From: an uncultured Planctomycetales bacterium
GTDB taxonomy: Bacteria; Omnitrophota; Gorgyraeia; Aquiviventales; Aquiviventaceae
DNA length: 55,205 bases
Assembly: GCA_964373835.1 (NCBI GenBank)
Contig: CAYJWN010000003.1
Span: 1-55,205, forward strand
Direction: 5' to 3'
Part shown: in pieces, positions 521 through 49,776 of the stretch
Layout of the letters: each line of letters begins with the position of its first letter
Position numbering within the stretch: position 1 is the first letter of the stretch
Notes under the pieces: model-generated
The model's input: the letters and a program-made list of their open reading frames with translations, nothing else
Told to the model about the DNA's origin: nothing
Database searches by the model: none
Position numbers and translations under genes: made by a program

Positions 521-652
521 CCAAGCTCCAATTTCCAAATCCCAAACAAGCACCAATGACCAAATTCCAAGCACCAAACAAGACAGTGTTTGGAATTTGG
601 GTATTGGAGTTTGGGATTTGTTTGGAATTTGGGATTTGGGATTTGGGATTTG
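521..652. repeat. Imperfect long hairpin built from 7-nt units (CCAAATC/GCACCAA arm versus GGGATTT/GGAATTT arm)
   Basis: Left arm 521-582 and right arm 589-652 are about 80% complementary around loop acagtg. It starts 1 nt after the rpiB stop and ends 5 nt before the glyA ATG. Sister copy at 9329-9464. Confidence 0.85.
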
Positions 653-2045: not shown

Positions 2046-2119
2046 TCAGATGTCAGAAGTCAGAAATCAGAAGTCAGATTTTGACCTCTGCTCTCTGACG
2101 TCTGCCCTCTGACTTCTGA
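2046..2119. repeat. Heptamer hairpin, TCAGAAG family
   Basis: tcagatg tcagaag tcagaaa tcagaag tcaga, loop tttt, then gacctct gctctct gacgtct gccctct gacttct ga. Ends 3 nt before the nrdR ATG. Confidence 0.85.
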
Positions 2120-4158: not shown

Positions 4159-4228
4159 GCTCTAGGCTGTAGGCTCAAGGCTCTAGGCGACTGCCTTTGC
4201 CTAGAGCCTCCAGCCTCAAGCCTAGAGC
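4159..4228. repeat. Heptamer hairpin (CTCTAGG/CTCAAGG units) between convergent genes
   Basis: gctctagg ctgtagg ctcaagg ctctagg c, loop gactgcctttg, then cctagag cctccag cctcaag cctagag c. Confidence 0.85.
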
Positions 4229-9328: not shown

Positions 9329-9464
9329 GCAAATTCCAAGCTCCAAATCCCAAGCACCAAACAAGCACCAAATCCCAAGCACCAAGCACCAAACCGTTTG
9401 GAACTTGGAGCTTGGAACTTGGAATTTGTTTGGAATTTGGGATTTGGAATTTGGTGCTTGGAAC
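9329..9464. repeat. Heptamer hairpin, CCAAAT/GCACCAA family (sister of 521-652)
   Basis: Left arm ...ccaagctccaaatcccaagcaccaaacaagcaccaa... and right arm cttggag cttggaa cttggaa ... ggaattt gggattt ggaattt ggtgctt. Separates the two transketolase subunit genes. Confidence 0.85.
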
Positions 9465-17018: not shown

Positions 17019-18362
17019 ATGGATTTGACAGAATTGTCTACGATTGAACGACTGCCGCCGCAGAATCTTGACGCGGAGCAGGCGGTGCTGGGCTCGATGC
17101 TGCTCGAAGAGGACGCGATCGTCCGCGCCGCTGAACTCCTTGAGGAAGCGGCATTCTACAAAGACGCCCACCGCAAGATCTTCGCCACGCTCCTCACCCT
17201 CTATCGGGCCAGCGTCCCCGTCGACCTGGTCACCATCACCGATGAGCTCGGAAGGCGCAACCTCCTTGACGGCATCGGCGGCCCCAGCTACCTCGCGACG
17301 TTGACCAGCGTGGTGCCGACGGCGGCCAACGTCGAGCACTACTGCCGCATCGTCAAACAGAAAGCCATCCTGCGCAGCCTGATCCGGGCCTCGACCCAAA
17401 TTGCCACGGACTGCTATGAAGGCGCCCACGATCCGGATCGGCTGCTTGATAAAGCCGAATCATTGATCTTTGACATCGCCTCCAAAAAACTCAAGCGCGA
17501 CGCGGTCGCGATGAAGGAGATCATCAAAAGCTCCATTGAGATGATCGATGCGCTCTACCAGCGCAAGGGGGCGATCACCGGCCTGCCGACGGGCTTCATC
17601 GAACTGGATCAGCAGCTGGCGGGGCTGCAGCCGGCGGAGCTGATCGTCGTGGCGGGCCGGCCGGCGATGGGCAAGAGCAGCTTCGCCTTGTGCGTCGCCG
17701 AGCATGTCGCCCTCCTGGAGAAGGCGGGCGTGGCGATCTTCAGCATGGAGATGTCGAAGGAAAATCTCGTGCAGCGCATGCTCTGCTCGCATGCGCGCGT
17801 CAACGCCCACAGCGTGCGCTCCGGCATGCTCTCGATGAGCGACTGGCCGAATCTCACCAAAGCCGCCGGCAAGCTCTCGGAAGCCCCGATCTTCATCGAT
17901 GACTCACCCAGCATCTCCATCCTGGAGCTGCGCGCGAAGGCGCGGCGGCTCAAGAGCCGGCACGACATCAGCCTCGTCATCCTCGACTACCTGCAGTTGA
18001 TGGACGAGTCGGCCTCATCGGAAAACCGCCAGCAGGAGATCTCCGTGATTTCACGCAGCCTGAAGGCCCTGGCGCGTGAGCTGGGGGTGCCGGTGATTGC
18101 GGTGAGCCAGCTGTCGCGGGCCCCCGAGCGGCGCGAATCGTTTCGTCCACGCCTCTCGGATCTGCGCGAATCCGGGGCGATTGAGCAGGACGCCGATGTG
18201 GTGCTCATGCTCTTCCGCGAGGATTACTATAACCTGACCGACGAGAACAAGGGCATCGCCGAGGTGATCATCGCCAAGCAGCGCAACGGCCCGACGGGCA
18301 CCGTGAAGCTCGCGTTCATCAAAGAGTACACGCGGTTTGAGATGCTGGCCCAGGCCTCATGA
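17019..18362 (+). CDS. dnaB: Replicative DNA helicase
   Basis: PPQNLDAEQAVLGSMLL, Walker A AGRPAMGKSSFAL, IIAKQRNGPTG. GTG 16992 is an alternative start. Confidence 0.9.
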   Translation: MDLTELSTIERLPPQNLDAEQAVLGSMLLEEDAIVRAAELLEEAAFYKDAHRKIFATLLTLYRASVPVDLVTITDELGRRNLLDGIGGPSYLATLTSVVPTAANVEHYCRIVKQKAILRSLIRASTQIATDCYEGAHDPDRLLDKAESLIFDIASKKLKRDAVAMKEIIKSSIEMIDALYQRKGAITGLPTGFIELDQQLAGLQPAELIVVAGRPAMGKSSFALCVAEHVALLEKAGVAIFSMEMSKENLVQRMLCSHARVNAHSVRSGMLSMSDWPNLTKAAGKLSEAPIFIDDSPSISILELRAKARRLKSRHDISLVILDYLQLMDESASSENRQQEISVISRSLKALARELGVPVIAVSQLSRAPERRESFRPRLSDLRESGAIEQDADVVLMLFREDYYNLTDENKGIAEVIIAKQRNGPTGTVKLAFIKEYTRFEMLAQAS

Positions 18363-20710
18363 GGGAGCTAGCCGCTAAACCGGTACCAGGTACCGGTCTA
18401 CCGTCTCGGTACCTGGTACCGGTCCTGGTCGGTGCCGCGGCGCTCCTGTTGGTGGTTCCTGCGACCGCGCGGGCCGCTGAAGGGGATCGGGTCGTCGCGG
18501 TGGAGGTCAGCGGCGCGAAGACGATCGCCACAGAAACCATCCTCGCGAAAGTCCAAACCAAACCCGGCTCGCCCTATCAGGATACGATCGTGAGCGAGGA
18601 CATCCGCCGGCTGTTCGCCCTCGGCTACTTCACGGATGTGAAGGCCGATGTGGAACAGCTGCCGGAGGGGCTCAAGCTGGTCTTCGTCGTGAAAGAAAAG
18701 CCGACGATCGCCGCCATCCGCGTTGAGGGCCAGCGGGTGCTGGGTAAGGCGAGGGTGTTGGAGCTCTTCGACGTCAAGGCAGGCGCCCTGTACGACGCCC
18801 GAACGGTCAAGCAAGGAGTGGACGTGCTGAAAGCCGAGTACGCCCGCAGAGGGTTTTCGCAGGTTGAGATCGTCTCACAGGTCGAGGTGGATGCGGCGGT
18901 GAACACCGCCACGCTCTATCTCGCCATTGATGAAGGGCCCCGCATGCGAATTCGGCAGGTGCTCGTCGAGGGCAACCAGGCCTTTTCGGATCGACGGATC
19001 CGCAAGCTGCTCAAGACGAAGCGCAAGTGGTGGTTTGCCGCCGGCACCTATGACGAACAGGCGCTGGACGAGGACCTGGAGCGCGTCAGAGCCTTCTATC
19101 GCAAGCACGGCTACCAGGACGTCGAGGTCACGAAGTCGGTCTCCCGCGATCCGACGGGTCGCGGGCTCTATGTGCATCTCACAATCGCCGAAGGGTTGCA
19201 GCACCGCGTGGGCCAGGTGGCGGTCGAGGGGGCGGTGCTGTTTCCTGAGCGCGAGATTCTGCGCGTCGTGACGTTGAAACCCGGCGCCGTCTACAGCACG
19301 GAGGCGCTGCAGGACGATCTGCGGCTGATCAAGCAGTATTACGGGGACCGCGGCTACATCCATGCCGAGGCGACGCCGGATGTGCGGCTGGACCCGGAGA
19401 GCAAGCGGGTCAACCTCACCTACCGTTTGGCGGAGAAGGAGCTGGTGTCCGTCAATCGCGTCGACGTGCAGGGCAACCTGCGGACGAAGGACGTCGTAGT
19501 ACGGCGCGAGCTGCGCATCTATCCCAGCGACCAGTTTGACGGGGCGAAGATCCGCAAGTCGATCGAGCGGCTCTACAACCTCGGCTATTTCGAAGAGGTG
19601 AGCGTCGACACAGAGCCCACGCCGAGTCCCGAGCACGAAGACCTCATCGTGAAGGTGAAGGAGTCGAAGACCGGCAGCTTCAGTTTCGGCGGCGGGTTTT
19701 CCTCAGTGGACCGGCTGGTGGGGCTCATCGAGCTTGAGCAGCGCAACTTCGATCTCAACGGCTTTCCGCACTTTACGGGAGCGGGGCAGGACCTGCGGTT
19801 CCGCGTCGAGGTGGGGACGGTGCGGCGCTTCTTCGACATGTCGTTCACAGAGCCCTGGGCGTTCGGCTACCCGGTGTCGGTGGGGGTGGATGCCTACAAC
19901 CGGACGCGCCTGCGCAGCCGCAACCTGGGGCTTGCCTTTGAGGAAGACCAGCGGGGAGCGGGTCTTCGACTTGTGAAAGAGTTCCTCGATCTCATCAAGG
20001 CGGGCCTGAGCTACCAGCTCTTCCGCACGGAGATTTCCGACGTGGTGGACGAGGCCTCGGCCGATTTGAAAGCAGAGCAGGGGCGCAACACGATCAGCGT
20101 GGGCGGCGTCAGCGTGTCATTCGACAGCCGTGACAACCGGTTTGATCCGACGAAGGGGGTCTTCGCGTTTACCTCCTCGGATCTGGCCGGCGGCATCGTT
20201 GCCGGCGACAAGGATTTTTACCGGGCGCAAGCCGGGGCGAGCCACTACGTCCCGCACGGGGATCGGTTCGTCCTGGAATCGCGCGTGCGGGCCGGTCTCG
20301 TCAAGGCGTATGGCGATTCCGATGAGGTGCCGATTTTCGAGCGGTTCTTCGGCGGCGGCGCCGGGACGATCCGAGGTTTTGAGGAACGGCGCGTGGGCCC
20401 GCGCGATCCCAATTCGAACGATCCCATTGGCGGTGAGGCGATCTTCGTGGGCACGCTGGAAGAGGTGATGACGATCGTGAAGGATGAGCGGGGCCGCTCG
20501 ATTTTGAAGGGGTCGACGTTCGTTGACGTCGGCAATGTCTGGCGCCGCGTGAATGAGTTCGGCGAGAGCTTCAAATCCGGGGCGGGGGTGGGCGCGCGGG
20601 TCAACACCCCCATCGGCCCGCTCCGGCTTGACCTGGGCTTCCCGCTCAACCAGATTGACGATAAGAAGCGCCGGCCGCGGTTTCACTTTAATATCAGCCG
20701 GTCATTCTGA
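18359..20710 (+). CDS. bamA: Outer membrane protein assembly factor BamA
   Basis: Signal peptide LLLVVPATARA-AEG, five POTRA-like repeats, Omp85 barrel ending in ...RFHFNISRSF. ATG overlaps the dnaB stop (ATGA). Confidence 0.9.
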   Translation: MRELAAKPVPGTGLPSRYLVPVLVGAAALLLVVPATARAAEGDRVVAVEVSGAKTIATETILAKVQTKPGSPYQDTIVSEDIRRLFALGYFTDVKADVEQLPEGLKLVFVVKEKPTIAAIRVEGQRVLGKARVLELFDVKAGALYDARTVKQGVDVLKAEYARRGFSQVEIVSQVEVDAAVNTATLYLAIDEGPRMRIRQVLVEGNQAFSDRRIRKLLKTKRKWWFAAGTYDEQALDEDLERVRAFYRKHGYQDVEVTKSVSRDPTGRGLYVHLTIAEGLQHRVGQVAVEGAVLFPEREILRVVTLKPGAVYSTEALQDDLRLIKQYYGDRGYIHAEATPDVRLDPESKRVNLTYRLAEKELVSVNRVDVQGNLRTKDVVVRRELRIYPSDQFDGAKIRKSIERLYNLGYFEEVSVDTEPTPSPEHEDLIVKVKESKTGSFSFGGGFSSVDRLVGLIELEQRNFDLNGFPHFTGAGQDLRFRVEVGTVRRFFDMSFTEPWAFGYPVSVGVDAYNRTRLRSRNLGLAFEEDQRGAGLRLVKEFLDLIKAGLSYQLFRTEISDVVDEASADLKAEQGRNTISVGGVSVSFDSRDNRFDPTKGVFAFTSSDLAGGIVAGDKDFYRAQAGASHYVPHGDRFVLESRVRAGLVKAYGDSDEVPIFERFFGGGAGTIRGFEERRVGPRDPNSNDPIGGEAIFVGTLEEVMTIVKDERGRSILKGSTFVDVGNVWRRVNEFGESFKSGAGVGARVNTPIGPLRLDLGFPLNQIDDKKRRPRFHFNISRSF
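18379..18423. repeat. GGTACCA/GGTACCG hairpin inside the bamA 5' codons
   Basis: accggtaccaggtaccgg (18379-18396) pairs with cggtacctggtaccggt (18407-18423). Read in frame as KPVPGTGLPSRYLVPVL. Same family as 46066-46106. Confidence 0.8.
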
Positions 20711-20725
20711 GTCGTTACAACACAG

Positions 20726-21298
20726 ATGGAGTCTCAGATGTCAGAGGTCAGAGGTCAGAGGTTAGAGGTTAGGCGTCGGATTTTCGCTGTTAGTCTCCTG
20801 GTCTGGGGATTCTGTCTTCTGACATCTGACTTCTGTCCTCTGCTTCACGCGGATGAGCTCAAGATCGGGTATGTGAGCCTGGCGAAGGTGTTTGACAGCT
20901 ATGAGCGGACCAAGGCGACAGAGGCGAGCCTCGAGCAGAAGGCCAAGCAGAAAGACGAGGAGCTGCGCGGACGCGTCGCGGAGCTGAAAAAGTTGCGCGA
21001 GAGCCTGGAGCTGCTGAGCGACCAGGCCCGGGAAACGAAAGCCCGCGAAGCGGAGCAGAAAGCGGATGACCTGCAGCGGTTTCGCGCCAACACCGCACGG
21101 GACCTCACGCGTGAGCGCGACACGTTCGCCAAAGCGATCTTCCAGGATATCCAGCAGGCGATCGATGCGTACGCGAAGGCCAACGGCTTTGCCCTCATCC
21201 TGAAAAAAGAGGACACGGTCCTGTATGCCCAGACAGCCTACGATGTCACCGACGGGGTGCTGCAGCTGTTGAACAGCAAGCAACCCGCCAAACCATGA
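20726..21298 (+). CDS. skp: Periplasmic chaperone Skp (OmpH family)
   Basis: Signal-peptide-like N-terminus ending LLHA-DE, then a coiled-coil Lys/Glu/Ala-rich OmpH body. Canonical position after bamA. Confidence 0.75.
   Translation: MESQMSEVRGQRLEVRRRIFAVSLLVWGFCLLTSDFCPLLHADELKIGYVSLAKVFDSYERTKATEASLEQKAKQKDEELRGRVAELKKLRESLELLSDQARETKAREAEQKADDLQRFRANTARDLTRERDTFAKAIFQDIQQAIDAYAKANGFALILKKEDTVLYAQTAYDVTDGVLQLLNSKQPAKP
20734..20842. repeat. Heptamer hairpin, TCAGAGG family, overlapping the skp signal-peptide codons
   Basis: tcagatg tcagagg x3 ttagagg ttagg (20734-20773), then tctgtct tctgaca tctgact tctgtcc tctg (20811-20842). Confidence 0.8.
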
Positions 21299-22614
21299 GT
21301 GAGCCACAGCGGGCCATCGCCAAAGAAGTGGTGTTGAGCGGGGTGGGCATTCACACCGGAATGCCTGTGTCCATCCGCGTGCTGCCCGCCCCGCCGGATA
21401 CGGGCGTCGTGTTCATCCGAACCGACCTGCCGCACCGTCCGGCCATTCCGGTCAAGTCATCTCAGGTTGTGGATGTGGAGAAGAGCGTCCGCCGCACCAC
21501 GCTCTCCAAGGACGGGGTCGAGGTGCAGACGGTGGAGCACTTCATGGCCTCATTGTGGGGGGCGGGGATTGACAACGCCTACGTGGAGGTGAGCGGCCCT
21601 GAAATCCCGGGATTGGACGGTTCCGCCATCCAATTCCTGGAGCCGTTGACCGCTGCGGGGACCACGGAGCAGCCGAAACCCCGGCGCTACTTCTCGTTGC
21701 GCGAGCCGGTCTCGGTTGAGGAAGAGGAGGCCTGCGTCGTCGTGTTCCCCAACCGGGCGCTGCGCATTTCCTATCTGCTCAGCTATCCGCATCCGCTTTT
21801 GAAATCGCAGTACGTCTCCTACACCGTGAACGGCCCCGCCTCGTTTGCGGACACCATTGCGCCGGCGCGGACCTTCTGCCTCAAGGAAGAAGCCGAGGCG
21901 CTTCGGACAGCCGGGTTCGGGAAGGGCGCCAGCTTCGAGAACACGCTGGTGCTGGGGGAACAGGGCGTGATCAACAACACGCTGCGGTTTGAGGATGAGT
22001 TCGCGCGCCACAAGATTCTGGATCTCTTGGGCGACCTCTACCTGCTCGGGGCGCACCTCTGCGCGCACGTGATCGCCGTCAAGAGCGGACATCCGTTGAA
22101 CGTCAAGTTGTTGAAGAAGCTGGGACAGGCGCTGGAGCAGTGGAAGCTGGGCTCGCTGCAGTCCCCGACGTCTGAGGTGATGGTAGGACCCCAGCTTGAC
22201 ATCACGCAGATCGAGAAGATTCTGCCGCATCGCTACCCGTTTCTGCTCGTTGACCGGATCATCGAGCTCACCGAGACGAAGGCGGTGGGGCTCAAGTGCG
22301 TGACGATCAACGACTACTTCTTCCGCGGACACTTCCCGGGCCGGCCCGTGATGCCGGGCGTCCTCATCGTGGAGGCGATGGCGCAGGTGGGCGGCATTAT
22401 CATGCTCAACAAGCGCGAGCATCTGGGGAAGCTGGCGTACTTTATGGCGGTGGACAAGGTGAAGTTCCGCAAGCCGGTCGTGCCCGGCGATGTCTTGGTG
22501 ATTGAGGCGGAGCTGGGCAAACTGCGCTCGCGGACCGGCCAGCTCACCGCCCGGGCGCTGGTGGATGGAAAAGTGGTGTGTGAAGGGGAGTTGATGTTCG
22601 CCATCAGCGAGTAG
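21295..22614 (+). CDS. lpxC/fabZ: Fused UDP-3-O-acyl-GlcNAc deacetylase / 3-hydroxyacyl-ACP dehydratase
   Basis: LpxC part: GVGIHTG, TVEHFMASL, HKILDLLGDL. FabZ hotdog part: LPHRYPFLLVDRI, GHFPGRPVMPGVLIVEAMAQ. Confidence 0.9.
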   Translation: MSEPQRAIAKEVVLSGVGIHTGMPVSIRVLPAPPDTGVVFIRTDLPHRPAIPVKSSQVVDVEKSVRRTTLSKDGVEVQTVEHFMASLWGAGIDNAYVEVSGPEIPGLDGSAIQFLEPLTAAGTTEQPKPRRYFSLREPVSVEEEEACVVVFPNRALRISYLLSYPHPLLKSQYVSYTVNGPASFADTIAPARTFCLKEEAEALRTAGFGKGASFENTLVLGEQGVINNTLRFEDEFARHKILDLLGDLYLLGAHLCAHVIAVKSGHPLNVKLLKKLGQALEQWKLGSLQSPTSEVMVGPQLDITQIEKILPHRYPFLLVDRIIELTETKAVGLKCVTINDYFFRGHFPGRPVMPGVLIVEAMAQVGGIIMLNKREHLGKLAYFMAVDKVKFRKPVVPGDVLVIEAELGKLRSRTGQLTARALVDGKVVCEGELMFAISE

Positions 22615-23474: not shown

Positions 23475-24332
23475 ATGAGTTCGAGTATTGCTATTATCGC
23501 CGGAGCCGGGCGGTTTCCGTTCTATGTCGCACAGGAAGCCAGGCGCCAGGGCTTCGGCGTCGTGGCTGTTGGCATCCGGGGGTGGGCCGATCCCACGTTG
23601 GCCGGACAGGTGGACGCCTATGAGGAGGTGACCGTCGGACAGTTGGGACGGCTCATTGAGCGGCTGACCTCGCACGGCGTCCATCAGGCGATCATGGCGG
23701 GGAAAGTCACCAAGGAAGCGTTGCTGGATCAGCGGACCGAGTTTGACGCCGAGGCGCTCGAGGTGCTTCGTCACGTGCGCGAGGCGTCCGTGCCGGCGCT
23801 GTTGGGGGCGATCGGGACGCGGCTTGCCAAAGAAGGGATCACGCTGCTGGACTCTTCGACGTTTTTGAAAGCCAACCTGTGCCCTGCCGGAGTCCTCACG
23901 ACCCGGGGGCCCACGGCTGTAGAACAGGAGGACATTCGGGTCGGCCTCGAGGCGGCTCGGAGACTCGCGGCGCTTGACATCGGCCAAACGGTGGTGGTGA
24001 AACATCGAGTCGTGGTGGCGGTGGAGGCGCTGGAGGGCACCGATGCCGCGATTCGACGGGCGCACAGCCTCGCCGGGGATGGATTGGTGGTCGTGAAAAC
24101 GGCTTCGCCGGCTCATGACCGTCGCTTTGATCTGCCCGTCATCGGCGCCGACACGCTCACGACGCTGACGACATCCGGCGTGTCCTGTCTCGCCGTTGAG
24201 GCGGACACCACGTTGCTGTTGGAACGGGACGCCCTGATCGCTTCGGCCAACGCGGCCTCGCTCTGTATTATCGGTATCGCCATGCCACCTGCCCCTGATA
24301 AGAAGAGTTCAGAGTTCAGAGTTGAGAGTTGA
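23475..24332 (+). CDS. lpxI: UDP-2,3-diacylglucosamine pyrophosphatase LpxI (DUF1009)
   Basis: IAIIAGAGRFPF and LDIGQTVVVKHRVVVAVEALEGTDAAIRRA, matching the LpxI core as I recall it from Caulobacter LpxI. The last ~9 codons are read from the heptamer repeat. Confidence 0.8.
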   Translation: MSSSIAIIAGAGRFPFYVAQEARRQGFGVVAVGIRGWADPTLAGQVDAYEEVTVGQLGRLIERLTSHGVHQAIMAGKVTKEALLDQRTEFDAEALEVLRHVREASVPALLGAIGTRLAKEGITLLDSSTFLKANLCPAGVLTTRGPTAVEQEDIRVGLEAARRLAALDIGQTVVVKHRVVVAVEALEGTDAAIRRAHSLAGDGLVVVKTASPAHDRRFDLPVIGADTLTTLTTSGVSCLAVEADTTLLLERDALIASANAASLCIIGIAMPPAPDKKSSEFRVES

Positions 24333-24386
24333 GAATTGTTTTTCTTAGCGTCGAACCCTGAACTCGCAACTCTCAACTCACAACTC
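24305..24386. repeat. Heptamer hairpin (GAGTTCA/GAGTTGA units)
   Basis: gagttca gagttca gagttga gagttga gaattg, loop, then gaaccct gaactcg caactct caactca caactc. Spans the lpxI stop and ends 6 nt before the rhomboid ATG. Confidence 0.85.
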
Positions 24387-24391
24387 AGACG

Positions 24392-25073: not shown

Positions 25074-25185
25074 AAGTCAAAAGGCAAAAGTCAAAACGCA
25101 AAACCACAAGTCAAAATTCAAAACCCAGTTGCCTATGGACACTTTTGACTTTTGGGTTGTGGTTTTGCCTTTTGAGTTTTGACTT
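25074..25185. repeat. Heptamer hairpin (AAGTCAA/AAGGCAA units)
   Basis: aagtcaa aaggcaa aagtcaa aacgcaa aaccaca agtcaaa attcaaa accc, loop, then acttttg acttttg ggttgtg gttttgc cttttga gttttga ctt. Confidence 0.85.
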
Positions 25186-40728: not shown

Positions 40729-41982
40729 ATGGCTCTCGTGTGCGGTGGTGTGATCGGGACGGTCCTCTTCCTGAGTCCAAGCGACGGGGCAGCGAACGAG
40801 GTCCGGGCTGGTGTCGCGCGCGAAGAATTCATCTTGCCGAAGGGCGTGCCGTTGGCCGGGTTCAGCCGTCGGAAAGGCAAGCCATCGAGCGGCCAGCATG
40901 ATCCGGTCGGCGTGCGGGCCTTGGTGGTGCAGGACGCCGACACCACCGTCGCGCTTGTCAGCTGCGATCTCTTGATTGTGGATGAGCGGCTCTTCGAGGC
41001 CGTGCACCGCCGTCTCACGGAGCAGGGCCTCCCGCACGACCTGACGCTGATCCTCGCCGCGACGCACACCCACTCAGGGCCGGGAGCCTATGGGAAGAAG
41101 TTTTTTGAAAAAGTCTCGATGGGCCATTTTGATCCGCGTGTGTTTGACGCGATTGCCGAGTCGGCTGCGCGCGCCGTCGTTCGCGCGCACGCCGGGCTTG
41201 TGCCGATCCACATGGTCTGCCGCAGCGGCACGGCGGATCACCTCGTGACCAATCGCGTTGGACCGCATGGGCCGGTCGATCCGGAGCTGCCGGCGTGCGC
41301 GTTCTATCCGGTGGAGGAGCGCACGCCGATGGCCGTGATCGTGAGCTTCGCCGCGCATCCGACGACGCTGGGGGCATGGAATCAGGAGCTCTCGGCGGAC
41401 TATCCCGGCGTGATCGTCAGGGAAGTGGAGCGCCGCTTTCCGACGGCGACCTGCCTGTTTTTCGCCGGCGCGGTGGGCGATCAAGGGCCGCTCAAGTCGG
41501 GCGAGGGATTCGAGCGGCCCGAGCGCGTCGGCCTTCCCCTGGCCCAACAGGCGATCGCCCTGCTGGAGAACGCCGACCCTGCGCCAGCGCAGGACGTGCG
41601 CGTCCTTCAAGAACGGATGAGGTTACCGCCGGCGGAGGTGCGTCTTGGGCGGCTGACGTTTCCGCGCTGGCTGGGCGCGCAGTTCGTCGATGACGATGCC
41701 ACGCTCTCGCTCCTGACGATGGGCAACGCCGTCTTTTTCGGCGCGCCCTGCGACTTGGCGTCAGCCCTCGGCCAGGAGCTCAAGGCCGCCGCGCGGTCGC
41801 GTGGCCTTGAGCCGGTCATCGTCGGCTTTGCCAGTGACTATGTCGGCTACTGTGTCCCTGAAGCGCTCTACGAGGCGAAGAAATATGAGTCGTCGATGGC
41901 CTTCAACGGTCCGAGAGCCGGCGAGCTCATCGTGCATCGCCTCATAGAAATGCTGGCGCGCGTAATGACACGTGACACGTGA
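40729..41982 (+). CDS. Neutral/alkaline ceramidase-like hydrolase
   Basis: GVPLAGFSRRKG...HDPVGVRALVV, LVSCDLLIV, ATHTHSGPG. ATG 40729 with signal-like MALVCGGVIGTVLFLSP; the ORF opens at 40618 inside the repeat. Confidence 0.65.
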   Translation: MALVCGGVIGTVLFLSPSDGAANEVRAGVAREEFILPKGVPLAGFSRRKGKPSSGQHDPVGVRALVVQDADTTVALVSCDLLIVDERLFEAVHRRLTEQGLPHDLTLILAATHTHSGPGAYGKKFFEKVSMGHFDPRVFDAIAESAARAVVRAHAGLVPIHMVCRSGTADHLVTNRVGPHGPVDPELPACAFYPVEERTPMAVIVSFAAHPTTLGAWNQELSADYPGVIVREVERRFPTATCLFFAGAVGDQGPLKSGEGFERPERVGLPLAQQAIALLENADPAPAQDVRVLQERMRLPPAEVRLGRLTFPRWLGAQFVDDDATLSLLTMGNAVFFGAPCDLASALGQELKAAARSRGLEPVIVGFASDYVGYCVPEALYEAKKYESSMAFNGPRAGELIVHRLIEMLARVMTRDT

Positions 41983-43252
41983 CATGATGGACATCTGCAG
42001 GGTTGTGACAGGTAACACGAAGGTGCTCATCTCCATTGCGTTTTTACTTGTCACCTGCCACCTGCCACCTGTCACCACTGATGCGGCTCAGGTTGAATAC
42101 CACGAGGGCCTGCCCATCGTCCATCTTACCGGCAGTCCCTACGAGTTGGGCCGTCAGCATGGCGAGGCGCTGCGGGAGGAAGTGCGCCGGTCGATCGGCC
42201 AGGTGTTGCGGTACTTTAGAAGCTACTTGAAGATCCCCCTCGTGCGCTCCATGGCGGCGAACTGGTGGCTCGATACCGCGTGGGCCAAGGCCGCGTCCTT
42301 CATCCCATTGGACTACGTGGAAGAGCTCAAAGGGCTGTCCGATGGATCAGGGGTGCCGCTGCGCGAGCTGTACCGGCTGCATGCCATCCCGGATCGCACC
42401 TACTCCTGCTCCAACTTTGCCGCGTGGGGGCGAGCGACGGCAGGCGGAGGGCTCATCCACGTCCGCAACCTGGACTGGAACATTGGCGCGGGCATCCAGC
42501 AATTCGCCGCCATCTTTGTCGTGCAGCCGACCGGCAAACACGCGTTTGTCAACGTCGGGTGGGCAGGATTTGTCGGAGTGCTCACCGGGATGAACGACGC
42601 GACAATCTCCATCGGCCAGATCGGCGCGGACACGGTCGATGCGACCTTCAGGGGCGAGCCCATGGTGTTTCTCATGCGTCGGGTCCTTGAAGAAGCCGAT
42701 GATCTCGAGGAAGCCGCCTCGCTGATCGTGAAGGCCCGTCGCACCGTCGGCGTCAACTACGTGGTCGCTGATGCCAAGGCGAAAGGAGCCATCGCGCTTG
42801 AGACCACGCATCAGCATGCCCGCGTCTTTCGTGCCGACGATGTCGCGGAACATGCAATCCCCTACGCGCGGCCGATCCGCGACGCCGTGTTCAGAGCCGA
42901 TACCGCCATCGATCCCACGATCCGCGACCGGCAACTCGCCTCTGAGGGAGATCCTGCGCGTGCGGGCTTGGAAGAGCCGGGGGGATCAGCCTACAGCATC
43001 CGCTATCTCGGCCAGGCCGCCGGGATCCTGGCCCACTACGGAACCCTTGATGCGACGACCGCCCAAGACATCGCGCGGAACGTCGCGCCAAGCTCCAACA
43101 TCCAAAGCGTGGTGTTCGCCTGGCCGGCTCTGTGGGTCGCCAACGCCCAGGGCACTCAGCCTGCAGCGCAGCGGCACTACCATCAGCTTGACGTGCGGCG
43201 GCTCTTGGAACGAGCAAAGCAGTCGGTGAGGAAGGCGATCAGCTCAGGCTGA
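41972..43252 (+). CDS. Peptidase C45 / acyl-CoA:6-APA acyltransferase-like Ntn hydrolase
   Basis: GSPYELGRQHGEALREEV, nucleophile context YSCSNFAAWG, IHVRNLDW. Start is GTG 41972 or ATG 41984/41987. Confidence 0.65.
   Translation: MTRDMMDICRVVTGNTKVLISIAFLLVTCHLPPVTTDAAQVEYHEGLPIVHLTGSPYELGRQHGEALREEVRRSIGQVLRYFRSYLKIPLVRSMAANWWLDTAWAKAASFIPLDYVEELKGLSDGSGVPLRELYRLHAIPDRTYSCSNFAAWGRATAGGGLIHVRNLDWNIGAGIQQFAAIFVVQPTGKHAFVNVGWAGFVGVLTGMNDATISIGQIGADTVDATFRGEPMVFLMRRVLEEADDLEEAASLIVKARRTVGVNYVVADAKAKGAIALETTHQHARVFRADDVAEHAIPYARPIRDAVFRADTAIDPTIRDRQLASEGDPARAGLEEPGGSAYSIRYLGQAAGILAHYGTLDATTAQDIARNVAPSSNIQSVVFAWPALWVANAQGTQPAAQRHYHQLDVRRLLERAKQSVRKAISSG
42047..42076. repeat. Tandem heptamer CACCTGC/CACCTGT inside the signal-peptide codons of the C45 gene
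   Basis: cttg tcacctg ccacctg ccacctg tcacc, read as LVTCHLPPVTT. Only a weak partner arm upstream (gtgacaggt at ~42005). Confidence 0.6.
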
Positions 43253-44094: not shown

Positions 44095-44123
44095 TAACGT
44101 GTTAGGAAAGAGTACCATCTCCC

Positions 44124-44223
44124 GATAAGGGCAAACCCGGAGCAATCCGGGGACGCAAAACCACCGGCCCCAGACGCTTTGCTTCGCAAAGCGAAGCATC
44201 TGGGGTAGCGGGGTTACCGAAGG
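44124..44223 (+). promoter_or_regulatory. GEMM-I (c-di-GMP-I) riboswitch aptamer
   Basis: Block-by-block match to the Vibrio Vc2 aptamer as I recall it: AAGGGCAAACC, CGGA-GCAA-UCCG (GNRA-capped P2), GGGACGCAAAACC, long P3 hairpin, GUAGCGGGGUUACCGAAGG. SD GAAGGAG (44219-44225) sits in the 3' strand. Confidence 0.85.
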
Positions 44224-46066: not shown

Positions 46067-46106
46067 GGTACCAGGTACCGACCAAGGGCGTCGGTACCTG
46101 GTACCG
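46066..46106. repeat. GGTACCA/GGTACCG hairpin (same family as 18379-18423)
   Basis: cggtaccaggtaccgac, loop caagggc, gtcggtacctggtaccg. Perfect 17-bp stem 4 nt beyond the ispH stop, with no T-tract. Confidence 0.85.
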
Positions 46107-46109
46107 GTT

Positions 46110-47129: not shown

Positions 47130-48113
47130 TCAGTTCGTCGGCGCGAGTCTTTCTCTAAAGAAACGCAGGCTGGCGTACTTGAGATACGGCAGCGAGCAGT
47201 AGGCGGTGTAATGGCCGAACGGCAGGAACACGATTTCGGGCCGGCCGAGCGCCCGCCAGAGCCGAAGCGAATTGGCTCTCCCAATCGTCCGATCGGCGAG
47301 GGCGATGAACATCAACAGGTTTCGGGGATCGACGTAGGGCGCCAGACGGATCGGATCGGTCTGCACGTGCTCGCGGAGCAGCCGTTCCATCGTCGCAAGA
47401 TCCATCTGATTGCGGGCTAAATACGTGGTCCGGGGTTTTGTGATGAGGCGGTCTGTTGACGTGATGAGGATGTCCGGGATGCTCCCGCCGGCAAGCGCCA
47501 CGACGTGCACCCGCAGGCGCGGCTCAACCGCCGCGGCCATCACGCTGGCGATGCCCCCCATGCTGACGCCGAAGCTTCCCATCCGCCGGGGATCCACGCG
47601 CTCATGGGAGGCCATCCAGTCGACCACCTGCCGAATTCGAATCACCCCCTGCCGCAAGAGCAGTTCCAGATGCGCCACCTCGTGGTCCGGCGAAATCTTC
47701 AGCGTCTTGCGGTGGATGAGTGCGACGTGAAACCCGCGGCGGGCCAGGTAGCGGCAGATGCCGCGTTCGAGCGGATAGTCACCCCCGAGAATCGCATTGA
47801 ACACGATGGCAGGACGGCGGCCCGGTGCCGTCGATTCAAACCACTCCACCTCGACGGTCGGTTCCGCCGGCTCAAACCCGGAGACGGACAGCGGAAACCG
47901 AACGAGATATTCCCGAAACGCTCCGCGGTCCGTCACCAGTTCCTGCGTGGCGGCCGGCGCGTGGACTGGATAGTCATAATACGCCGCGAGTTCAGGAGGC
48001 AGCGGGTGGGGCGTGGGCGCGGTCTTCCGCAGCGGCGCGTAGGCGCAGCCATCAGCACTAAGCACCAGGCCAGCACTAAGCACTAAGCAATAAGCACTTA
48101 GAGCTCCTATCAA
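47130..48113 (-). CDS. Alpha/beta hydrolase (dienelactone hydrolase / prolyl oligopeptidase-like), probably exported
   Basis: Nucleophile elbow GVSMGG, ...IALADRT..., FGHY. Start proposed at in-frame TTG 48113, giving MIGALSAYCLVLSAGLVLSADGC. The 569-aa ORF upstream of that is translated repeat. Confidence 0.65.
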   Translation of the reverse strand: MIGALSAYCLVLSAGLVLSADGCAYAPLRKTAPTPHPLPPELAAYYDYPVHAPAATQELVTDRGAFREYLVRFPLSVSGFEPAEPTVEVEWFESTAPGRRPAIVFNAILGGDYPLERGICRYLARRGFHVALIHRKTLKISPDHEVAHLELLLRQGVIRIRQVVDWMASHERVDPRRMGSFGVSMGGIASVMAAAVEPRLRVHVVALAGGSIPDILITSTDRLITKPRTTYLARNQMDLATMERLLREHVQTDPIRLAPYVDPRNLLMFIALADRTIGRANSLRLWRALGRPEIVFLPFGHYTAYCSLPYLKYASLRFFRERLAPTN

Positions 48114-48523: not shown

Positions 48524-49776
48524 CGGGCATTCGTTCCGTCGTGCAAAGGGCTGTCGACGGTGACCGCGGCCGGCCGGACGTAAATCGGGTTGGAGAAGAT
48601 CCATGGCTTGCCGTGGCGCGCGGCCTCCAGGCGATACACGCCCGGCGTCGTGACGGGAATCCGCCACACCTGCCCGATGGTGGTCTCGATCGGCCGCCCG
48701 TCTTTGAACAACGTGAGGTTGGCCGGGGCCGGCAGGTACGTGGTGAGCTGCAGCCCAGGCGCGAGCGCCACCTCATCCCCCATGACGCCGAGCACGCGCT
48801 CGCCGTCCTCCGCGGCGAAGGAGAAGTCTTTGGCATCACCGATGATGCTCATGGTGAAATAGGCGTGCCCGCGGCGCAGCGCCGAATAGATGCCCTGAGG
48901 AGTCAGCGTCTTCGACGGAATGAGCAGGTGGGTGCGGACGAGCTGGAACATGTCCCGATAGGGCGCGAACTTCAGTCCCATGAGATGAAACTCGTGCGCG
49001 TCGGTTGAGCCGATCCCGACCACCTGCCCATGCTGCCGGATCAGCTCATCCCATTTGGCCAGCGGGTCATACGGCCGGTCGAGGATGGAAAAATAAAACG
49101 GCTCGGCCGGCGCGGTGAGCGTCCAGAGCACCAGGCGCGCGCGGTTCTCATCGAGCGTATCATGGGCCACATTGTACGCTTCGATGCCGGTGAACCCGAT
49201 GACCGACCAGTTCTTCCACCGCCCATTCGCGAAGTAGGGGTGCGCGATGAAGCCCAGGCCTCCCTGCCGTGTGACCTCGTCGATGACCTGCTGGGTGGTG
49301 AGCTTATGGCGGTCGATCTCCTGCGTGACGTTCAGCGCCAGGTAATGGCCGTCCTTCGCGGAGACCTCCATACCGACCAGGACGAGGGTGCCGCCGTGCC
49401 AGCCCTGCCGGCCATCGCGCAGCGCCTGGAGGTTGTTGTGCTCGGTCACGATCACGTAGTCCAGACGCTGCGCGTTGGCGGTGCGCACGACGTCCTCAAA
49501 CGTCCCGTGGGCATCATGGGAGTACGTCGTGTGGACGTGGATCACGCCGGCATAGTCGGCGTAGCCGTCATCCAGCAGGTCGGTCGCTTTGGCGCCTCCC
49601 TGGGGCAGCGGTTTTCCGCGTGGCTGCGTGAGCACCGCGCAGCCCGTTGTGACGAGGCCAAGTAGGAAGCATAGCGTCAACCAACGGACAGAAGTCAGAA
49701 GACAGAAGTCAGAAATCAGAAAGTTCTGACCTCTGACCTCTGACCTCTGACCTCTGAATCTGGCGATGGACCTCAT
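48514..49776 (-). CDS. PHP-domain metallophosphoesterase-like protein, probable lipoprotein
   Basis: PHP motif VIHVHTTYSHDAHG...VIVTEHNN. Lipobox LVTTGC. ATG 49776 overlaps the pmbA stop (ATGA). Confidence 0.75.
   Translation of the reverse strand: MRSIARFRGQRSEVRGQNFLISDFCLLTSVRWLTLCFLLGLVTTGCAVLTQPRGKPLPQGGAKATDLLDDGYADYAGVIHVHTTYSHDAHGTFEDVVRTANAQRLDYVIVTEHNNLQALRDGRQGWHGGTLVLVGMEVSAKDGHYLALNVTQEIDRHKLTTQQVIDEVTRQGGLGFIAHPYFANGRWKNWSVIGFTGIEAYNVAHDTLDENRARLVLWTLTAPAEPFYFSILDRPYDPLAKWDELIRQHGQVVGIGSTDAHEFHLMGLKFAPYRDMFQLVRTHLLIPSKTLTPQGIYSALRRGHAYFTMSIIGDAKDFSFAAEDGERVLGVMGDEVALAPGLQLTTYLPAPANLTLFKDGRPIETTIGQVWRIPVTTPGVYRLEAARHGKPWIFSNPIYVRPAAVTVDSPLHDGTNARQH
49687..49757. repeat. Heptamer hairpin, TCAGAAG/TCAGAGG family, inside the PHP gene 5' codons
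   Basis: gacagaag tcagaag acagaag tcagaaa tcagaa, then ttctgac ctctgac x3 ctctga. On the - strand most mismatches become G-U pairs. Confidence 0.85.

What the first reader, a model, noticed from the sequence alone, without database searches (positions are those of the whole stretch)
20726..20842. A palindromic repeat is read in frame as the Skp signal peptide
The TCAGAGG arm is translated as SEVRGQRLEVRRR, a basic n-region. The complementary CTTCTGA arm is translated as FCLLTSDFCPLLHA, a hydrophobic h-region ending in an AxA-like site before DELKIGY. No in-frame ATG, GTG or TTG lies between ATG 20738 and the mature domain. The next one, GTG near 20872, would remove the signal peptide that a periplasmic Skp needs. 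One arm of this family naturally encodes Arg-rich sequence and the other Leu/Phe/Cys-rich sequence, so the element seems pre-adapted to supply export signals. The same reading recurs in the PHP protein (RGQRSEVRGQNFLISDFCLLTS). Analogous cases are bamA (18379), the hydrolase (48051-48113) and the C45 peptidase (42047).
Basis: partly seen in the sequence, partly recalled or inferred. Interest (0 to 1): 0.7.

Follow-up and report, generated by a model that had tools for sequence, protein, structure and literature searches.

The report
Heptamer-repeat hairpin encodes Skp signal peptide
In this Omnitrophota genome, a hairpin-forming pair of 7-base tandem repeats between bamA and skp is very probably translated as the export signal of the periplasmic chaperone Skp, and many relatives show the same thing in two unrelated exported proteins.

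Summary
A (TCAGAGG)n array at 20734-20772 and a degenerate complementary (TCTGNCN)n array at 20810-20846 lie inside the only reading frame that can give Skp a signal peptide. The only in-frame starts are ATG 20726 and ATG 20738, and ATG 20738 has a GGAG 6 nt upstream. The peptide MSEVRGQRLEVRRR-IFAVSLLVWGFCLLT-SDFCPLLHA|DELK has a standard n/h/c layout.

Where the perfect complement would give an in-frame TGA, the unit reads TGT. TGA survives only out of frame.

Relatives support translation. At least 19 of 43 non-redundant Omnitrophota skp loci carry a heptamer array or array pair at this site, with different units. In two of them (L044, L026) both arms encode essentially the whole signal peptide from a single start codon. 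Seven-residue periodicity is also enriched at the N-termini of an unrelated lipoprotein hydrolase family (23/120 versus 0/120 internally).

Most of the h-region here comes from the non-repeat spacer. Outgroups have ordinary signal peptides, so the repeat overwrote an existing signal rather than supplying one. The arm also needed point edits.

The closest precedent is the Neisseria opa CTCTT repeat in the leader-peptide coding region. I found no published description of this case. I rate it a new variant of a known kind.

The parts
20728..20731 (+). Shine-Dalgarno-like GGAG, 6 nt upstream of ATG 20738
   Evidence: Sequence. Start-candidate table. It is paired in the predicted hairpin.
20738..20740 (+). 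Most likely skp start codon. It lies in a variant repeat unit, TCAGATG. An in-frame ATG at 20726 has no SD.
   Evidence: These are the only two in-frame starts upstream of the mature domain. The database gene call P0001 (186 aa) starts here.
20734..20772 (+). 5' arm, (TCAGAGG)n heptamer array, translated as (M)SEVRGQRLEVR, the n-region
   Evidence: TRF period 7, 5.1 copies, 93% matches. Period-7 run. Inverted repeat.
20773..20809 (+). Non-repeat spacer or loop. It encodes RRR and most of the hydrophobic core, IFAVSLLVWG.
   Evidence: residue-to-codon mapping; Kyte-Doolittle profile.
20810..20846 (+). 3' arm, degenerate (TCTGNCN)n array, translated as FCLLTSDFCPLL. This is the end of the h-region plus the c-region.
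   Evidence: TRF period 7, 5.4 copies, 77% matches. In-frame units are TGT and out-of-frame units keep TGA.
20738..20851 (+). Predicted 38-residue Sec signal peptide with the cleavage site LHA|DELK
   Evidence: n/h/c layout. The xxA|(A/E/Q/D)ELKIGYV junction is conserved in 42 homologs. The Pfam OmpH domain starts at residue 42.
20852..21298 (+). Mature Skp (OmpH family) with stop codon
   Evidence: PF03938, E = 2.7e-27. Gene order bamA-skp-lpxC/fabZ-lpxA.
18359..20710 (+). bamA, ending 27 nt before the skp ATG. Its own n-region contains a GGTACC-type palindrome at 18379-18429.
49689..49757 (-). Second copy of the TCAGAGG / TTCTGA palindrome. It is read in frame in the leader of a PHP-domain putative lipoprotein, whose start ATG 49776 overlaps the upstream stop as ATGA.
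2046..2119 (+). Third copy of the same unit family, untranslated. It ends 3 nt before the nrdR ATG at 2123 and keeps TGA in the nrdR frame.
41966..42076 (+). (TGACACG)n ... (GTCACCT)n pair at the 5' end of the C45/AAT-family peptidase. The ATG lies in the variant unit TGACATG, and the 3' arm reads VTCHLPPVT in the signal peptide.
   Evidence: L060 has the same unit family at its skp.
48041..48098 (-). (TAGTGCT)n array read as LSAYCLVLSAGLVLSA, the h-region of a conserved lipoprotein hydrolase. The in-frame TAG is replaced by TAT.

Best explanation
The window comes from an Omnitrophota lineage whose genome is littered with hairpin-forming pairs of 7-nt tandem repeats. They sit in gene junctions. 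At the bamA-skp junction such an element has become part of the skp coding sequence.

Translation starts at ATG 20738. This codon is itself a variant repeat unit and is preceded by GGAG. The three parts of the signal peptide are encoded as follows:
- The purine-rich 5' arm is read as the basic n-region, MSEVRGQRLEVR(RR).
- The spacer plus the first units of the pyrimidine-rich 3' arm are read as the hydrophobic core, IFAVSLLVWGFCLLT.
- The rest of the arm is read as the c-region, SDFCPLLHA.

Signal peptidase I would cut after LHA, and mature Skp starts at DELKIGYV.

Seven is not a multiple of three, so three successive units are read in all three frames and give a 7-residue periodic peptide. 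The array must therefore lack stop codons in every frame that is actually used. This was achieved by point edits: TGA to TGT exactly in the in-frame units, and C-to-T changes that turn Pro/Leu into Leu/Phe.

In evolutionary terms, a signal peptide needs only charge and hydrophobicity. Its coding region therefore tolerates these fast-evolving repeats much as intergenic DNA does. The repeats overwrote an ancestral ordinary signal peptide and have been homogenised and turned over since.

Shown: the sequence anatomy, the lack of other starts, the stop avoidance, and the recurrence in orthologs and in a second protein family. Inferred: actual initiation at 20738, export and cleavage, and the overwriting scenario.
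For: - Only two in-frame starts exist, both upstream of the 5' arm, and ATG 20738 has an SD.
- The OmpH domain begins at residue 42.
- The junction xxA|xELKIGYV is conserved in 42 homologs, while everything N-terminal to it is unalignable.
- The peptide has a net positive n-region, a 15-residue core with mean Kyte-Doolittle 2.35, Pro at -5 and Ala at -1.
- Stop avoidance: in-frame TGN is TGT in skp (2/2), PHP (1/1), L026 (3/3), L044 (4/4) and L004 (2/2). TGA remains in 7 of 15 out-of-frame units. The untranslated nrdR copy has TGA in frame. The hydrolase arm has TAT in frame and TAG three times out of frame.
- Orthologs: 19 of 43 non-redundant skp loci have period-7 runs within 200 nt upstream of the mature start. 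Further cases were seen by eye in L001, L019, L053, L058 and L060.
- L044 (MSEVRSQKSDVRSQKSEIRCQKSNFFCPLSSVLCPLFFVICLLSSVLCPLVRA) has a single start with a GGAGG SD. L026 has a single usable start. In both, the two arms encode essentially the entire signal peptide.
- Loci whose skp has an ordinary signal peptide (L002, L007, L013, L016, L018) have no heptamer runs at all in up to 20 kb.
- In the window, 6 of about 11 exported proteins carry an element in the leader-coding region, against at most 1 of about 35 cytoplasmic proteins (Fisher p = 3e-4).
- In an unrelated lipoprotein hydrolase family, 23/120 homologs have strong 7-residue periodicity in the first 60 residues and 0/120 internally. 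Period 7 stands out against periods 5, 6, 8 and 9.
Against: - There is no experimental start-site or cleavage data, and no SignalP-type predictor was available.
- The predicted mRNA hairpin (-61.5 kcal/mol) buries both the SD and the AUG. Taken at face value this should hinder initiation at 20738.
- The stop-avoidance statistic is modest (Fisher p = 0.05) and partly circular, because an open frame was the starting point.
- Gene callers make spurious ORFs across the same repeat in many phyla, so translation through such repeats cannot be assumed in general.
- The classification of exported versus cytoplasmic proteins in the window was done by eye.
Confidence: 0.75

Rival explanations
1. The hairpin is a functional cis-regulatory RNA, and its coding role is secondary. 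The 5' arm, which holds or adjoins the SD and AUG, pairs with the leader-coding 3' arm and masks the skp initiation region. Skp would then be made only when ribosomes finishing bamA (27 nt upstream here, 0-5 nt in many orthologs) open the stem, or after RNase III processing, as in the Haemophilus hmw heptamer hairpin.
For: - The SD and AUG lie in a stem of -61.5 kcal/mol, z = -3.8.
- In L003, L011, L001, L008, L012, L031, L043, L052 and L028 the 5' arm starts at or within 5 nt of the bamA stop and itself contains AGGAG and the ATG.
- The skp site is occupied even in loci with almost no other heptamer runs.
- Both arms differ between lineages yet stay related to each other.
- Elements in untranslated leaders end 3-12 nt before the ATG, often without an SD.
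- A heptamer-repeat 5'-UTR hairpin processed by RNase III is documented in H. influenzae (PMC12721329).
Against: - Complementarity is poor in several orthologs. Fold z-scores are about +0.5 to +1.3 for L001, L003, L004 and L058.
- G-U versus A-C asymmetry does not consistently favour the sense strand.
- RNase III cutting here would sever the coding sequence.
- Strict coupling to bamA fits poorly with Skp normally being far more abundant than BamA (general knowledge).
- Persistence at skp can equally be explained by lock-in once the element is coding.
Confidence: 0.3
2. The arrays are contingency loci. Slipped-strand changes of one or two 7-nt units shift the frame between the ATG and the mature domain and switch the envelope protein off and on, as the CTCTT repeats do in the leader-peptide coding region of Neisseria opa genes.
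For: - The unit length is not a multiple of 3, and the array lies between the start codon and the mature domain.
- The arrays concentrate in exported and envelope proteins.
- The opa precedent is documented (PMC3960869; bioRxiv 10.1101/2020.09.16.300947).
- Some Omnitrophota are thought to be host-dependent (general knowledge).
Against: - The tracts are short: 3-5 units here, against 7 or more for typical phase-variable tracts.
- The array sequences, and hence unit numbers, are identical or differ by single substitutions in near-identical sequences from different samples (L038, L040, L042), and the arm lengths are equal in L003 and L011 at about 5% divergence.
- Skp is a housekeeping chaperone of envelope biogenesis.
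- Assemblies give only consensus sequences, so this evidence is weak either way.
Confidence: 0.12
3. Only the 3' arm is translated. Initiation occurs at a non-canonical codon in the spacer (ATT 20780 or CTG 20798), using the GAGG motifs of the 5' arm as Shine-Dalgarno sequences. The 5' arm would then be a leader, as it is in L060, L014 and L015.
For: - The 5' arm contains repeated GAGG, and the last one lies about 12 nt before ATT 20780.
- In several orthologs the start clearly lies after the 5' arm.
Against: - The product MFAVSLLVWGF... would have no basic n-region.
- ATT and CTG starts are rare.
- A canonical ATG with GGAG at 6 nt is available.
- L044, L026, L004 and L005 show the same 'ATG before the 5' arm' layout with strong SDs (AGGAG or GGAGG) and no usable later start.
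Confidence: 0.07
4. The element is purely intergenic. Skp starts at GTG 20872, or the ORF extension is an annotation artefact.
For: Gene callers produce many spurious short ORFs across TCAGAGG arrays. They also mis-place starts at such repeats: P0002 and P0221 are truncated calls.
Against: - GTG 20872 lies inside the invariant KIGYV motif of the OmpH domain.
- The product would lack any signal peptide.
- The reading frame is kept open through the arm by targeted substitutions.
Confidence: 0.02

Closest known systems
Neisseria opa 'coding repeat': CTCTT pentamers in the leader-peptide coding region (PMC3960869; bioRxiv 10.1101/2020.09.16.300947)
   Same: In both cases a pyrimidine-rich short tandem repeat, with a unit length that is not a multiple of three, lies between the start codon and the mature domain of an exported protein. 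It is translated as part of the signal peptide.
   Different: The unit is a pentamer rather than a heptamer. The opa repeat is a single long array (about 7-28 units) with no complementary partner array. It is a proven high-frequency phase-variation switch in surface adhesins. Here there are two short complementary arrays forming a hairpin around the start of a housekeeping chaperone gene, and no length variation was seen.
Haemophilus influenzae hmw1A 5'-UTR (ATCTTTC)n hairpin processed by RNase III (PMC12721329)
   Same: In both, heptanucleotide tandem repeats form one arm of a long hairpin at the 5' end of the mRNA of an exported protein.
   Different: The hmw repeat is untranslated, its right arm is a non-repeat G-rich region, and its function has been shown experimentally. 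Here both arms are heptamer arrays and, in skp, both are inside the ORF.
Paired heptanucleotide repeat sites of Geobacter metallireducens, class 3, consensus MTYCTGA (PMC2700814)
   Same: The unit is practically the same (the reverse complement of MTYCTGA is TCAGRAK, compared with TCAGAGG/TCAGAAG). The layout is also the same: about five tandem units, paired on opposite strands with a variable spacer, in gene junctions.
   Different: The Geobacter sites were described as putative IHF/HU or global-regulator binding sites. No coding role or signal-peptide overlap was reported. The phylum is different.
Cyanobacterial STRR heptamers and Xanthomonas/Nostoc GGGAATC-type heptamer repeats (PMC4692102)
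   Same: These are also lineage-specific over-representations of intergenic heptanucleotide tandem repeats. Some occur as inverted pairs, and they vary in length and sequence between close relatives at conserved positions.
   Different: They have G-quadruplex-prone or other units, are mostly non-coding, and have not been reported to encode signal peptides.
Rickettsia palindromic elements (RPE) and other in-frame MITEs (PMC10969869)
   Same: These are palindromic repeat elements that survive inside ORFs because they are read in frame and sit in tolerant parts of proteins.
   Different: RPEs are elements of about 100-150 bp with a family-wide consensus and a conserved encoded peptide, inserted at many positions in proteins. 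The elements here share only the 7-nt unit, not a full-length consensus, and are confined to gene junctions and leader peptides.

Membership tests
Sec-type (signal peptidase I) signal peptide | Positively charged n-region directly after the initiator Met | tested here: met
   In MSEVRGQRLEVRRR the side chains sum to +3 (5 Arg, 2 Glu). tabulates +3 including the N-terminus because its detected core starts one residue earlier, at R14.
Sec-type (signal peptidase I) signal peptide | Uncharged hydrophobic core of about 7-15 residues | tested here: met
   IFAVSLLVWGFCLLT has 15 residues with mean Kyte-Doolittle 2.35.
Sec-type (signal peptidase I) signal peptide | c-region with small or neutral residues at -1 and -3, before the mature domain | tested here: met
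   In L-H-A|D-E-L-K, Ala is at -1, Leu at -3 and Pro at -5. The junction aligns with xxA|xELKIGYV in 42 homologs. That Leu is acceptable at -3 rests on the established (-3,-1) rule, not on a predictor.
Sec-type (signal peptidase I) signal peptide | Recognition by a trained predictor (SignalP, LipoP) or experimental cleavage and export | not testable with these tools
Skp / OmpH periplasmic chaperone | OmpH domain and a bamA-skp-lpx gene neighbourhood | tested here: met
   PF03938, E = 2.7e-27, residues 42-178. bamA lies upstream and lpxC-fabZ and lpxA downstream.
Heptanucleotide tandem repeats (STRR-like SSRs) | At least 3 head-to-tail copies of a 7-nt unit, over-represented in the genome | tested here: met
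   The window holds 19 period-7 runs in 55 kb, with many different units. The pattern count is 14 against 0.37 expected.
Heptanucleotide tandem repeats (STRR-like SSRs) | STRR in the strict sense: the specific units of heterocystous cyanobacteria | tested here: not met
   The relatives are Omnitrophota MAGs and the units are different.
Phase-variable contingency locus (opa type) | A repeat tract, with unit not divisible by 3, between the start codon and the functional domain | tested here: met
Phase-variable contingency locus (opa type) | Tract-length heterogeneity within or between closely related populations | tested here: inconclusive
   Array sequences are identical or differ only by single substitutions in near-identical contigs from different samples (L038, L040, L042), and arm lengths are equal in L003 and L011. 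Only consensus assemblies were available, not reads.
RPE-like or MITE in-frame insertion | Full-length consensus shared by dispersed copies (terminal inverted repeats, target duplications) | tested here: not met
   The three TCAGAGG-family copies in the window (2046-2119, 20734-20846, 49689-49757) share the unit but not the spacer or flanks. L060 skp and the window C45 element share units but have unrelated loops.
REP/BIME elements | 20-40 nt imperfect palindrome with a GTAG/CGTC head, associated with a RAYT transposase | not tested
   The arms are tandem heptamers of 25-70 nt. I did not search for a RAYT gene.
Rfam-curated RNA family | Match to a covariance model at the gathering score | tested here: not met
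   Only a c-di-GMP-I-GGC riboswitch and one tRNA were found in the window. Nothing matched at any repeat element.

The most novel reading that the evidence does not exclude
The heptamer hairpins could be an actively maintained system of this Omnitrophota lineage rather than tolerated junk. Paired arrays that enclose the ribosome-binding site and the leader-peptide codons of envelope genes would be continually rewritten in concert, for example by transcription- and RNase III-dependent slippage as at the Haemophilus hmw locus. This would set or switch the translation and export of periplasmic and outer-membrane proteins. Signal peptides would then be by-products of a nucleic-acid-level device. 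The wholesale replacement of the element between alleles whose flanks are 90-95% identical would be its signature.
Probability: 0.15. Interest if true: 0.8.

Novelty: new variant of a known kind. Interest (0 to 1): 0.6.

Why it matters
- **How little a signal peptide requires.** A signal peptide can be written, in part or entirely, by a self-complementary 7-nt tandem repeat read successively in all three frames. This is a natural, recurrent demonstration of how little sequence information export signals need. It also shows how the complementarity of the genetic code (purine-rich codons hydrophilic, pyrimidine-rich codons hydrophobic) can yield an n-region and an h-region from the two arms of one hairpin.
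- **Fast evolution of leader regions.** The leader-coding regions of essential envelope genes can evolve much faster than their flanks.
- **Annotation.** Gene callers truncate or mis-start such genes (for example P0002 and P0221) and invent ORFs across the repeats. Secretome predictions for Omnitrophota and other repeat-rich uncultured phyla will be affected.
- **A possible regulatory link.** If the hairpin has an RNA-level role, it would link translation initiation to the leader-peptide codons of exported proteins.

Tried and rejected
- **Gene calls for the window.** A look-up of the window's own Skp in the contig index to obtain gene calls found nothing on record. Gene boundaries in the window therefore rest on ORFs, a crude GC3-based caller that made some errors, Pfam and inspection.
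- **Rfam.** No family matched any repeat element.
- **Promoter and terminator scan around skp.** It gave nothing meaningful.
- **Test for RNA-level selection.** Comparing sense and antisense folding energies and G-U content was inconclusive. Skp, PHP and the glyA leader favour the sense strand, while nrdR, tkt and C45 favour the antisense strand. Across orthologs the sense bias is also present in repeat-free outgroups. The first attempt timed out.
- **Automated test of element ends against gene starts.** It was uninformative because internal Met codons inflated the control to 10.7%. The adjacency I describe rests on manual inspection.
- **Search with a synthetic repeat-encoded peptide.** It returned mostly short, domain-less ORFs from several phyla. 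This shows that the unit is widespread and often mis-called, not that it is commonly a signal peptide.
- **Lipoprotein reading.** I considered and rejected it for the window's Skp because WGFC and SDFC are not lipoboxes. L003 does have LAAC.
- **Wholesale cassette replacement in L060.** I considered this reading and kept it only as a possibility. The 3' arms of all orthologs form a continuum of CTGTCNN units, which is compatible with rapid concerted evolution in place.
Full report
**1. What is at the coordinates**

bamA (18359-20710) ends with TGA at 20708-20710. An ORF of 190 codons runs from 20726 to 21298. Within it, Tandem Repeats Finder reports two heptamer arrays:
- TCAGAGG at 20734-20769: 5.1 copies, 93% matches.
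- TTCTGAC at 20810-20846: 5.4 copies, 77% matches.

The two arrays are an inverted repeat. The arms are 32 nt long, 78% complementary and 44 nt apart. The 14-mer TCAGAGGTCAGAGG with up to two mismatches occurs 14 times in the window against 0.37 expected by chance. As RNA, 20711-20860 folds into one long hairpin of -61.5 kcal/mol, z = -3.8 against dinucleotide shuffles.

**2. The reading frame and the start**

The protein is an OmpH/Skp family member (PF03938, E = 2.7e-27). The domain starts at residue 42 of the 186-residue product. The gene order bamA-skp-lpxC/fabZ-lpxA is the classical one.

Between the upstream in-frame stop and the mature domain, the only ATG/GTG/TTG codons are ATG 20726 and ATG 20738. 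The next is GTG 20872, inside the invariant KIGYV motif. ATG 20738 has GGAG six bases upstream, and ATG 20726 has nothing. The public gene call also starts at 20738.

The leader from ATG 20738 reads MSEVRGQRLEVRRR / IFAVSLLVWGFCLLT / SDFCPLLHA | DELKIGYV:
- The n-region is basic.
- The core has 15 uncharged residues, mean Kyte-Doolittle 2.35.
- Pro is at -5, Leu at -3 and Ala at -1.

The junction aligns with xxA|xELKIGYV in 42 homologs.

Mapping codons to DNA shows which part encodes what. The 5' arm encodes SEVRGQRLEVR. The non-repeat spacer (20773-20809) encodes RRR and IFAVSLLVWG. The 3' arm encodes FCLLTSDFCPLL. The arm supplies the last third of the core and the c-region.

**3. Evidence that the arm is read**

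A heptamer array is read in all three frames over three units. The perfect complement (CCTCTGA)n would read PLTSDL-stop.

In the skp arm, the two units where TGN falls in frame are TGT. The two units where it falls out of frame are still TGA. The same holds elsewhere:

| Arm | In-frame units | Out-of-frame units |
|---|---|---|
| PHP leader | TGT (1/1) | TGA x3, TGT x1 |
| L026 | TGT (3/3) | TGA x1, TGT x3, TGG x1 |
| L004 | TGT (2/2) | TGA x1, TGT x2 |
| L044 | TGT (4/4) | TGT x5, TGG x1 (no TGA) |
| Hydrolase arm | TAT (1/1) | TAG x3 |

The untranslated copy of the same unit family in front of nrdR keeps TGA in the nrdR frame. Pooled over the arms that contain both forms, TGA occupies 0 of 8 in-frame units and 7 of 15 out-of-frame units (Fisher p = 0.05). 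This is modest and partly circular.

The other departures from perfect complementarity are C-to-T changes (CCT to CTT, CTC to TTC). They raise hydrophobicity and still allow G-U pairing.

**4. Relatives**

Skp homologs are from Omnitrophota. I collected 61 loci.

In 19 of 43 non-redundant loci where the mature start could be located automatically, period-7 runs lie within 200 nt upstream of it. L001, L019, L053, L058 and L060 show them on inspection.

The units differ between loci. The 5' units are GAGACAG, GAGACAT, GTGACAC, GCGACAG, GGCAGCA/GGCAGAA (L005), CAGCAGG (L058) and TCAGARG. The 3' arms form a continuum of CTGTCNN-type units. They are always translated into Cys/Leu/Ser/Pro/Val-rich sequence ending in CPxxxA just before the mature domain.

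Two layouts exist:
- **Layout A.** In most loci the 5' arm starts at or within 5 nt of the bamA stop. It supplies the SD (AGGAG from GACAGGA units) and the ATG (a variant unit such as GACATGA). Only the 3' arm is fully coding.
- **Layout B.** In the TCAGARG group (the window, L004, L026, L044; proteins P0005, P0006, P0012) and in L005 (GGCAGCA/GGCAGAA units), the ATG with its own SD precedes the 5' arm, so both arms are translated.

L044 has a single in-frame start (SD GGAGG) and a leader of about 53 residues that is encoded almost entirely by the two arms. L026 is similar.

Outgroup loci (L002, L007, L013, L016, L018, L021 and others) have ordinary signal peptides of normal length. Most of them (L002, L007, L013, L016, L018) have no heptamer run anywhere in up to 20 kb. 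L021 has a single run elsewhere. So the trait belongs to a sub-lineage, and the ancestor already had a signal peptide.

**5. Rate of change**

L060 is 90.5% identical to the window in the end of bamA and 94.6% identical in mature skp plus the start of lpxC. Between the bamA stop and GCGGATGAG the two cannot be aligned. L060 has (GTGACAC)n, then an SD and ATG, then (GTCACCT)n read as VTCHLSPVT.

L058 is about 85% identical in the flanks. It keeps the window's 3' arm but has (CAGCAGG)5 as its 5' arm. It lacks the elements the window has in front of rlmD and has only half of the one in front of the rhomboid gene.

The leader region therefore turns over far faster than its flanks. Rapid concerted evolution of arrays in place can explain this, since the units differ at 2-3 of 7 positions. 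Replacement by recombination is not excluded.

Unit numbers look stable in near-identical sequences from different samples. The L038, L040 and L042 arrays differ only by single substitutions, and the L003 and L011 arms are equal in length.

**6. The wider class in the window**

The window has 19 period-7 runs and at least 14 paired elements, with many different units. They fill gene junctions.

- In front of the cytoplasmic or membrane proteins GlyA, NrdR, transketolase, rhomboid and RlmD, they end 3-12 nt before the ATG. The context is often CGATG, with no SD.
- Two elements lie between convergent genes (4159-4223 and 46070-46130).
- Where an element overlaps a coding region, it is the leader of an exported protein:
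  - BamA: a GGTACC palindrome in the n-region. The only start, ATG 18359, overlaps the dnaB stop.
  - Skp.
  - The C45/AAT peptidase, with layout A.
  - A PHP-domain putative lipoprotein. Its start ATG 49776 overlaps the upstream stop as ATGA, and both arms lie in the n-region.
  - A ceramidase-like protein, whose start is ambiguous.
  - An S9-like hydrolase.

By my manual classification this is 6 of about 11 exported proteins against at most 1 of about 35 others (Fisher p = 3e-4).

**7. A second protein family**

The hydrolase belongs to a conserved Omnitrophota lipoprotein family. Its homologs share a lipobox ...GC followed by AYAPLR. Many have heptad-periodic cores such as LLTAYCLLLTAYC, LTASCFLLTAS, FTVHCTLFTV and LSAYCLVLIA.

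Strong 7-residue periodicity occurs in the first 60 residues of 23/120 homologs. It occurs in 0/120 in internal or C-terminal windows. Period 7 stands out against periods 5, 6, 8 and 9 (23 against 8, 3, 6 and 0). For Skp the figures are 29/120 N-terminal, 12/120 internal (a coiled coil) and 0/120 C-terminal.

The TAYCLLP peptide occurs in leaders of both families in different genomes. All homologs examined that retain an N-terminal leader have a lipobox, so here too the repeats overwrote an existing signal.

**8. How it most likely works**

Shown:
- the anatomy;
- the absence of other starts;
- frame-specific stop avoidance;
- recurrence in orthologs and in another exported family;
- confinement to junctions and leaders.

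Inferred:
- Translation starts at 20738.
- The Sec system exports the precursor, and signal peptidase I cuts after LHA.
- Signal-peptide coding regions are permissive for these fast-evolving arrays because only charge and hydrophobicity are required.
- The purine-rich then pyrimidine-rich order of the arms happens to match the n-then-h order.

What the hairpins do at the nucleic-acid level is open. The predicted stem buries the SD and AUG. This suggests either translational coupling to bamA or processing, by analogy with the Haemophilus hmw heptamer hairpin (PMC12721329). However, complementarity is weak in several orthologs and strand asymmetry is inconsistent. Phase variation as in opa (PMC3960869) is possible in principle but unsupported.

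**9. Comparison with what is known, and novelty**

- The nearest precedent for a short tandem repeat translated as part of a leader peptide is the opa CTCTT coding repeat.
- The nearest precedent for heptamer hairpins at 5' ends is hmw.
- The nearest for paired heptamer arrays with virtually the same unit is Geobacter metallireducens class 3 sites, consensus MTYCTGA (PMC2700814).
- Heptamer arrays in Xanthomonas and Nostoc (PMC4692102) and in-frame Rickettsia palindromic elements (PMC10969869) are looser relatives.
- My literature searches found nothing on such repeats in Omnitrophota, nor on palindromic heptamer arrays encoding signal peptides.

I classify the finding as a new variant of a known kind. 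It is of moderate to good interest, mainly for signal-peptide evolvability, repeat biology and the annotation of uncultured phyla.

Noticed in passing
window 522-652, 2046-2119, 9330-9464, 24304-24387, 25074-25185; also L001 7549-7641, L008 14322-14348, L017 2207-2233 and 6223-6249, L028 1600-1657: Heptamer hairpins in untranslated leaders end only 1-12 nt before the start codon of the next gene. They usually leave no room for a Shine-Dalgarno sequence, and the start context is often CGATG (nrdR, rhomboid, rlmD, possibly ceramidase, L028). This suggests an unusual initiation mode or processing of the hairpins.
   Followed up: partly
window 20711-20845 versus L060 190-319: Between alleles whose flanks are 90.5% and 94.6% identical, the whole stretch from the bamA stop to the signal-peptide cleavage site cannot be aligned. 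It carries a different heptamer unit and a different start-codon position.
   Followed up: partly
window 48041-48098 and 48444-48523: Two complementary arrays, (AGCACTA)n and (AGTGCTN)n, lie about 350 nt apart. One lies just after the PHP gene stop, and the other encodes the hydrolase lipoprotein core. The 350 nt between them has no convincing ORF. This is a long-range inverted repeat of unknown meaning.
   Followed up: no
window 18379-18429 and 46070-46130: The same GGTACC-rich palindrome (ACCGGTACCAGGTACCG...CGGTACCTGGTACCGGT) occurs twice. One copy is translated in the BamA n-region. The other lies between the convergent genes ispH and ORF 44231-45868.
   Followed up: partly
window 24304-24332: The lpxI-like ORF (23475-24332) runs into the 5' arm of the next element, so its C-terminal residues are repeat-encoded. 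The relative L058 stops earlier and has only the 3' arm of this element.
   Followed up: partly
window 51136-51168 (- strand gene 49773-51176): An unpaired (CCCCGCG)n array lies at the 5' end of a PmbA/TldD-family gene. If the ATG at 51176 is used, it would be read as GARGVGRGARG. The true start was not resolved.
   Followed up: no
window 44121-44222: A c-di-GMP-I-GGC riboswitch (Rfam RF03167, 69.6 bits) lies directly upstream of ORF 44231-45868. That ORF is a 545-residue protein with an N-terminal hydrophobic segment and no Pfam match.
   Followed up: no
window 21295-22614: lpxC and fabZ are fused into one 439-residue ORF (LpxC plus FabA/FabZ domains). The same fusion is present in the relative L058.
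   Followed up: no
proteins P0121-P0220: SEVRGQR-repeat peptides, that is (TCAGAGG)n arrays, occur in short domain-less ORF calls from Pseudomonadota, Thermodesulfobacteriota, Deltaproteobacteria and Acidobacteria MAGs. This unit is therefore widespread across phyla (compare Geobacter MTYCTGA) and commonly produces spurious gene calls.
   Followed up: partly
L003 10019-10045 (and some other skp orthologs): In L003 the first Cys encoded by the 3' arm follows LAA, giving a perfect lipobox (ILAAC). Skp could be a lipoprotein there. Most orthologs have T or other residues at -1, so this is not general.
   Followed up: no
P0002 (L060) and P0221 (window hydrolase): Public gene calls start too far downstream at these repeats (MAFLGL... 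and MLSADGC...), cutting off the n-region or the whole core. Secretome predictions based on such calls would miss these proteins.
   Followed up: partly
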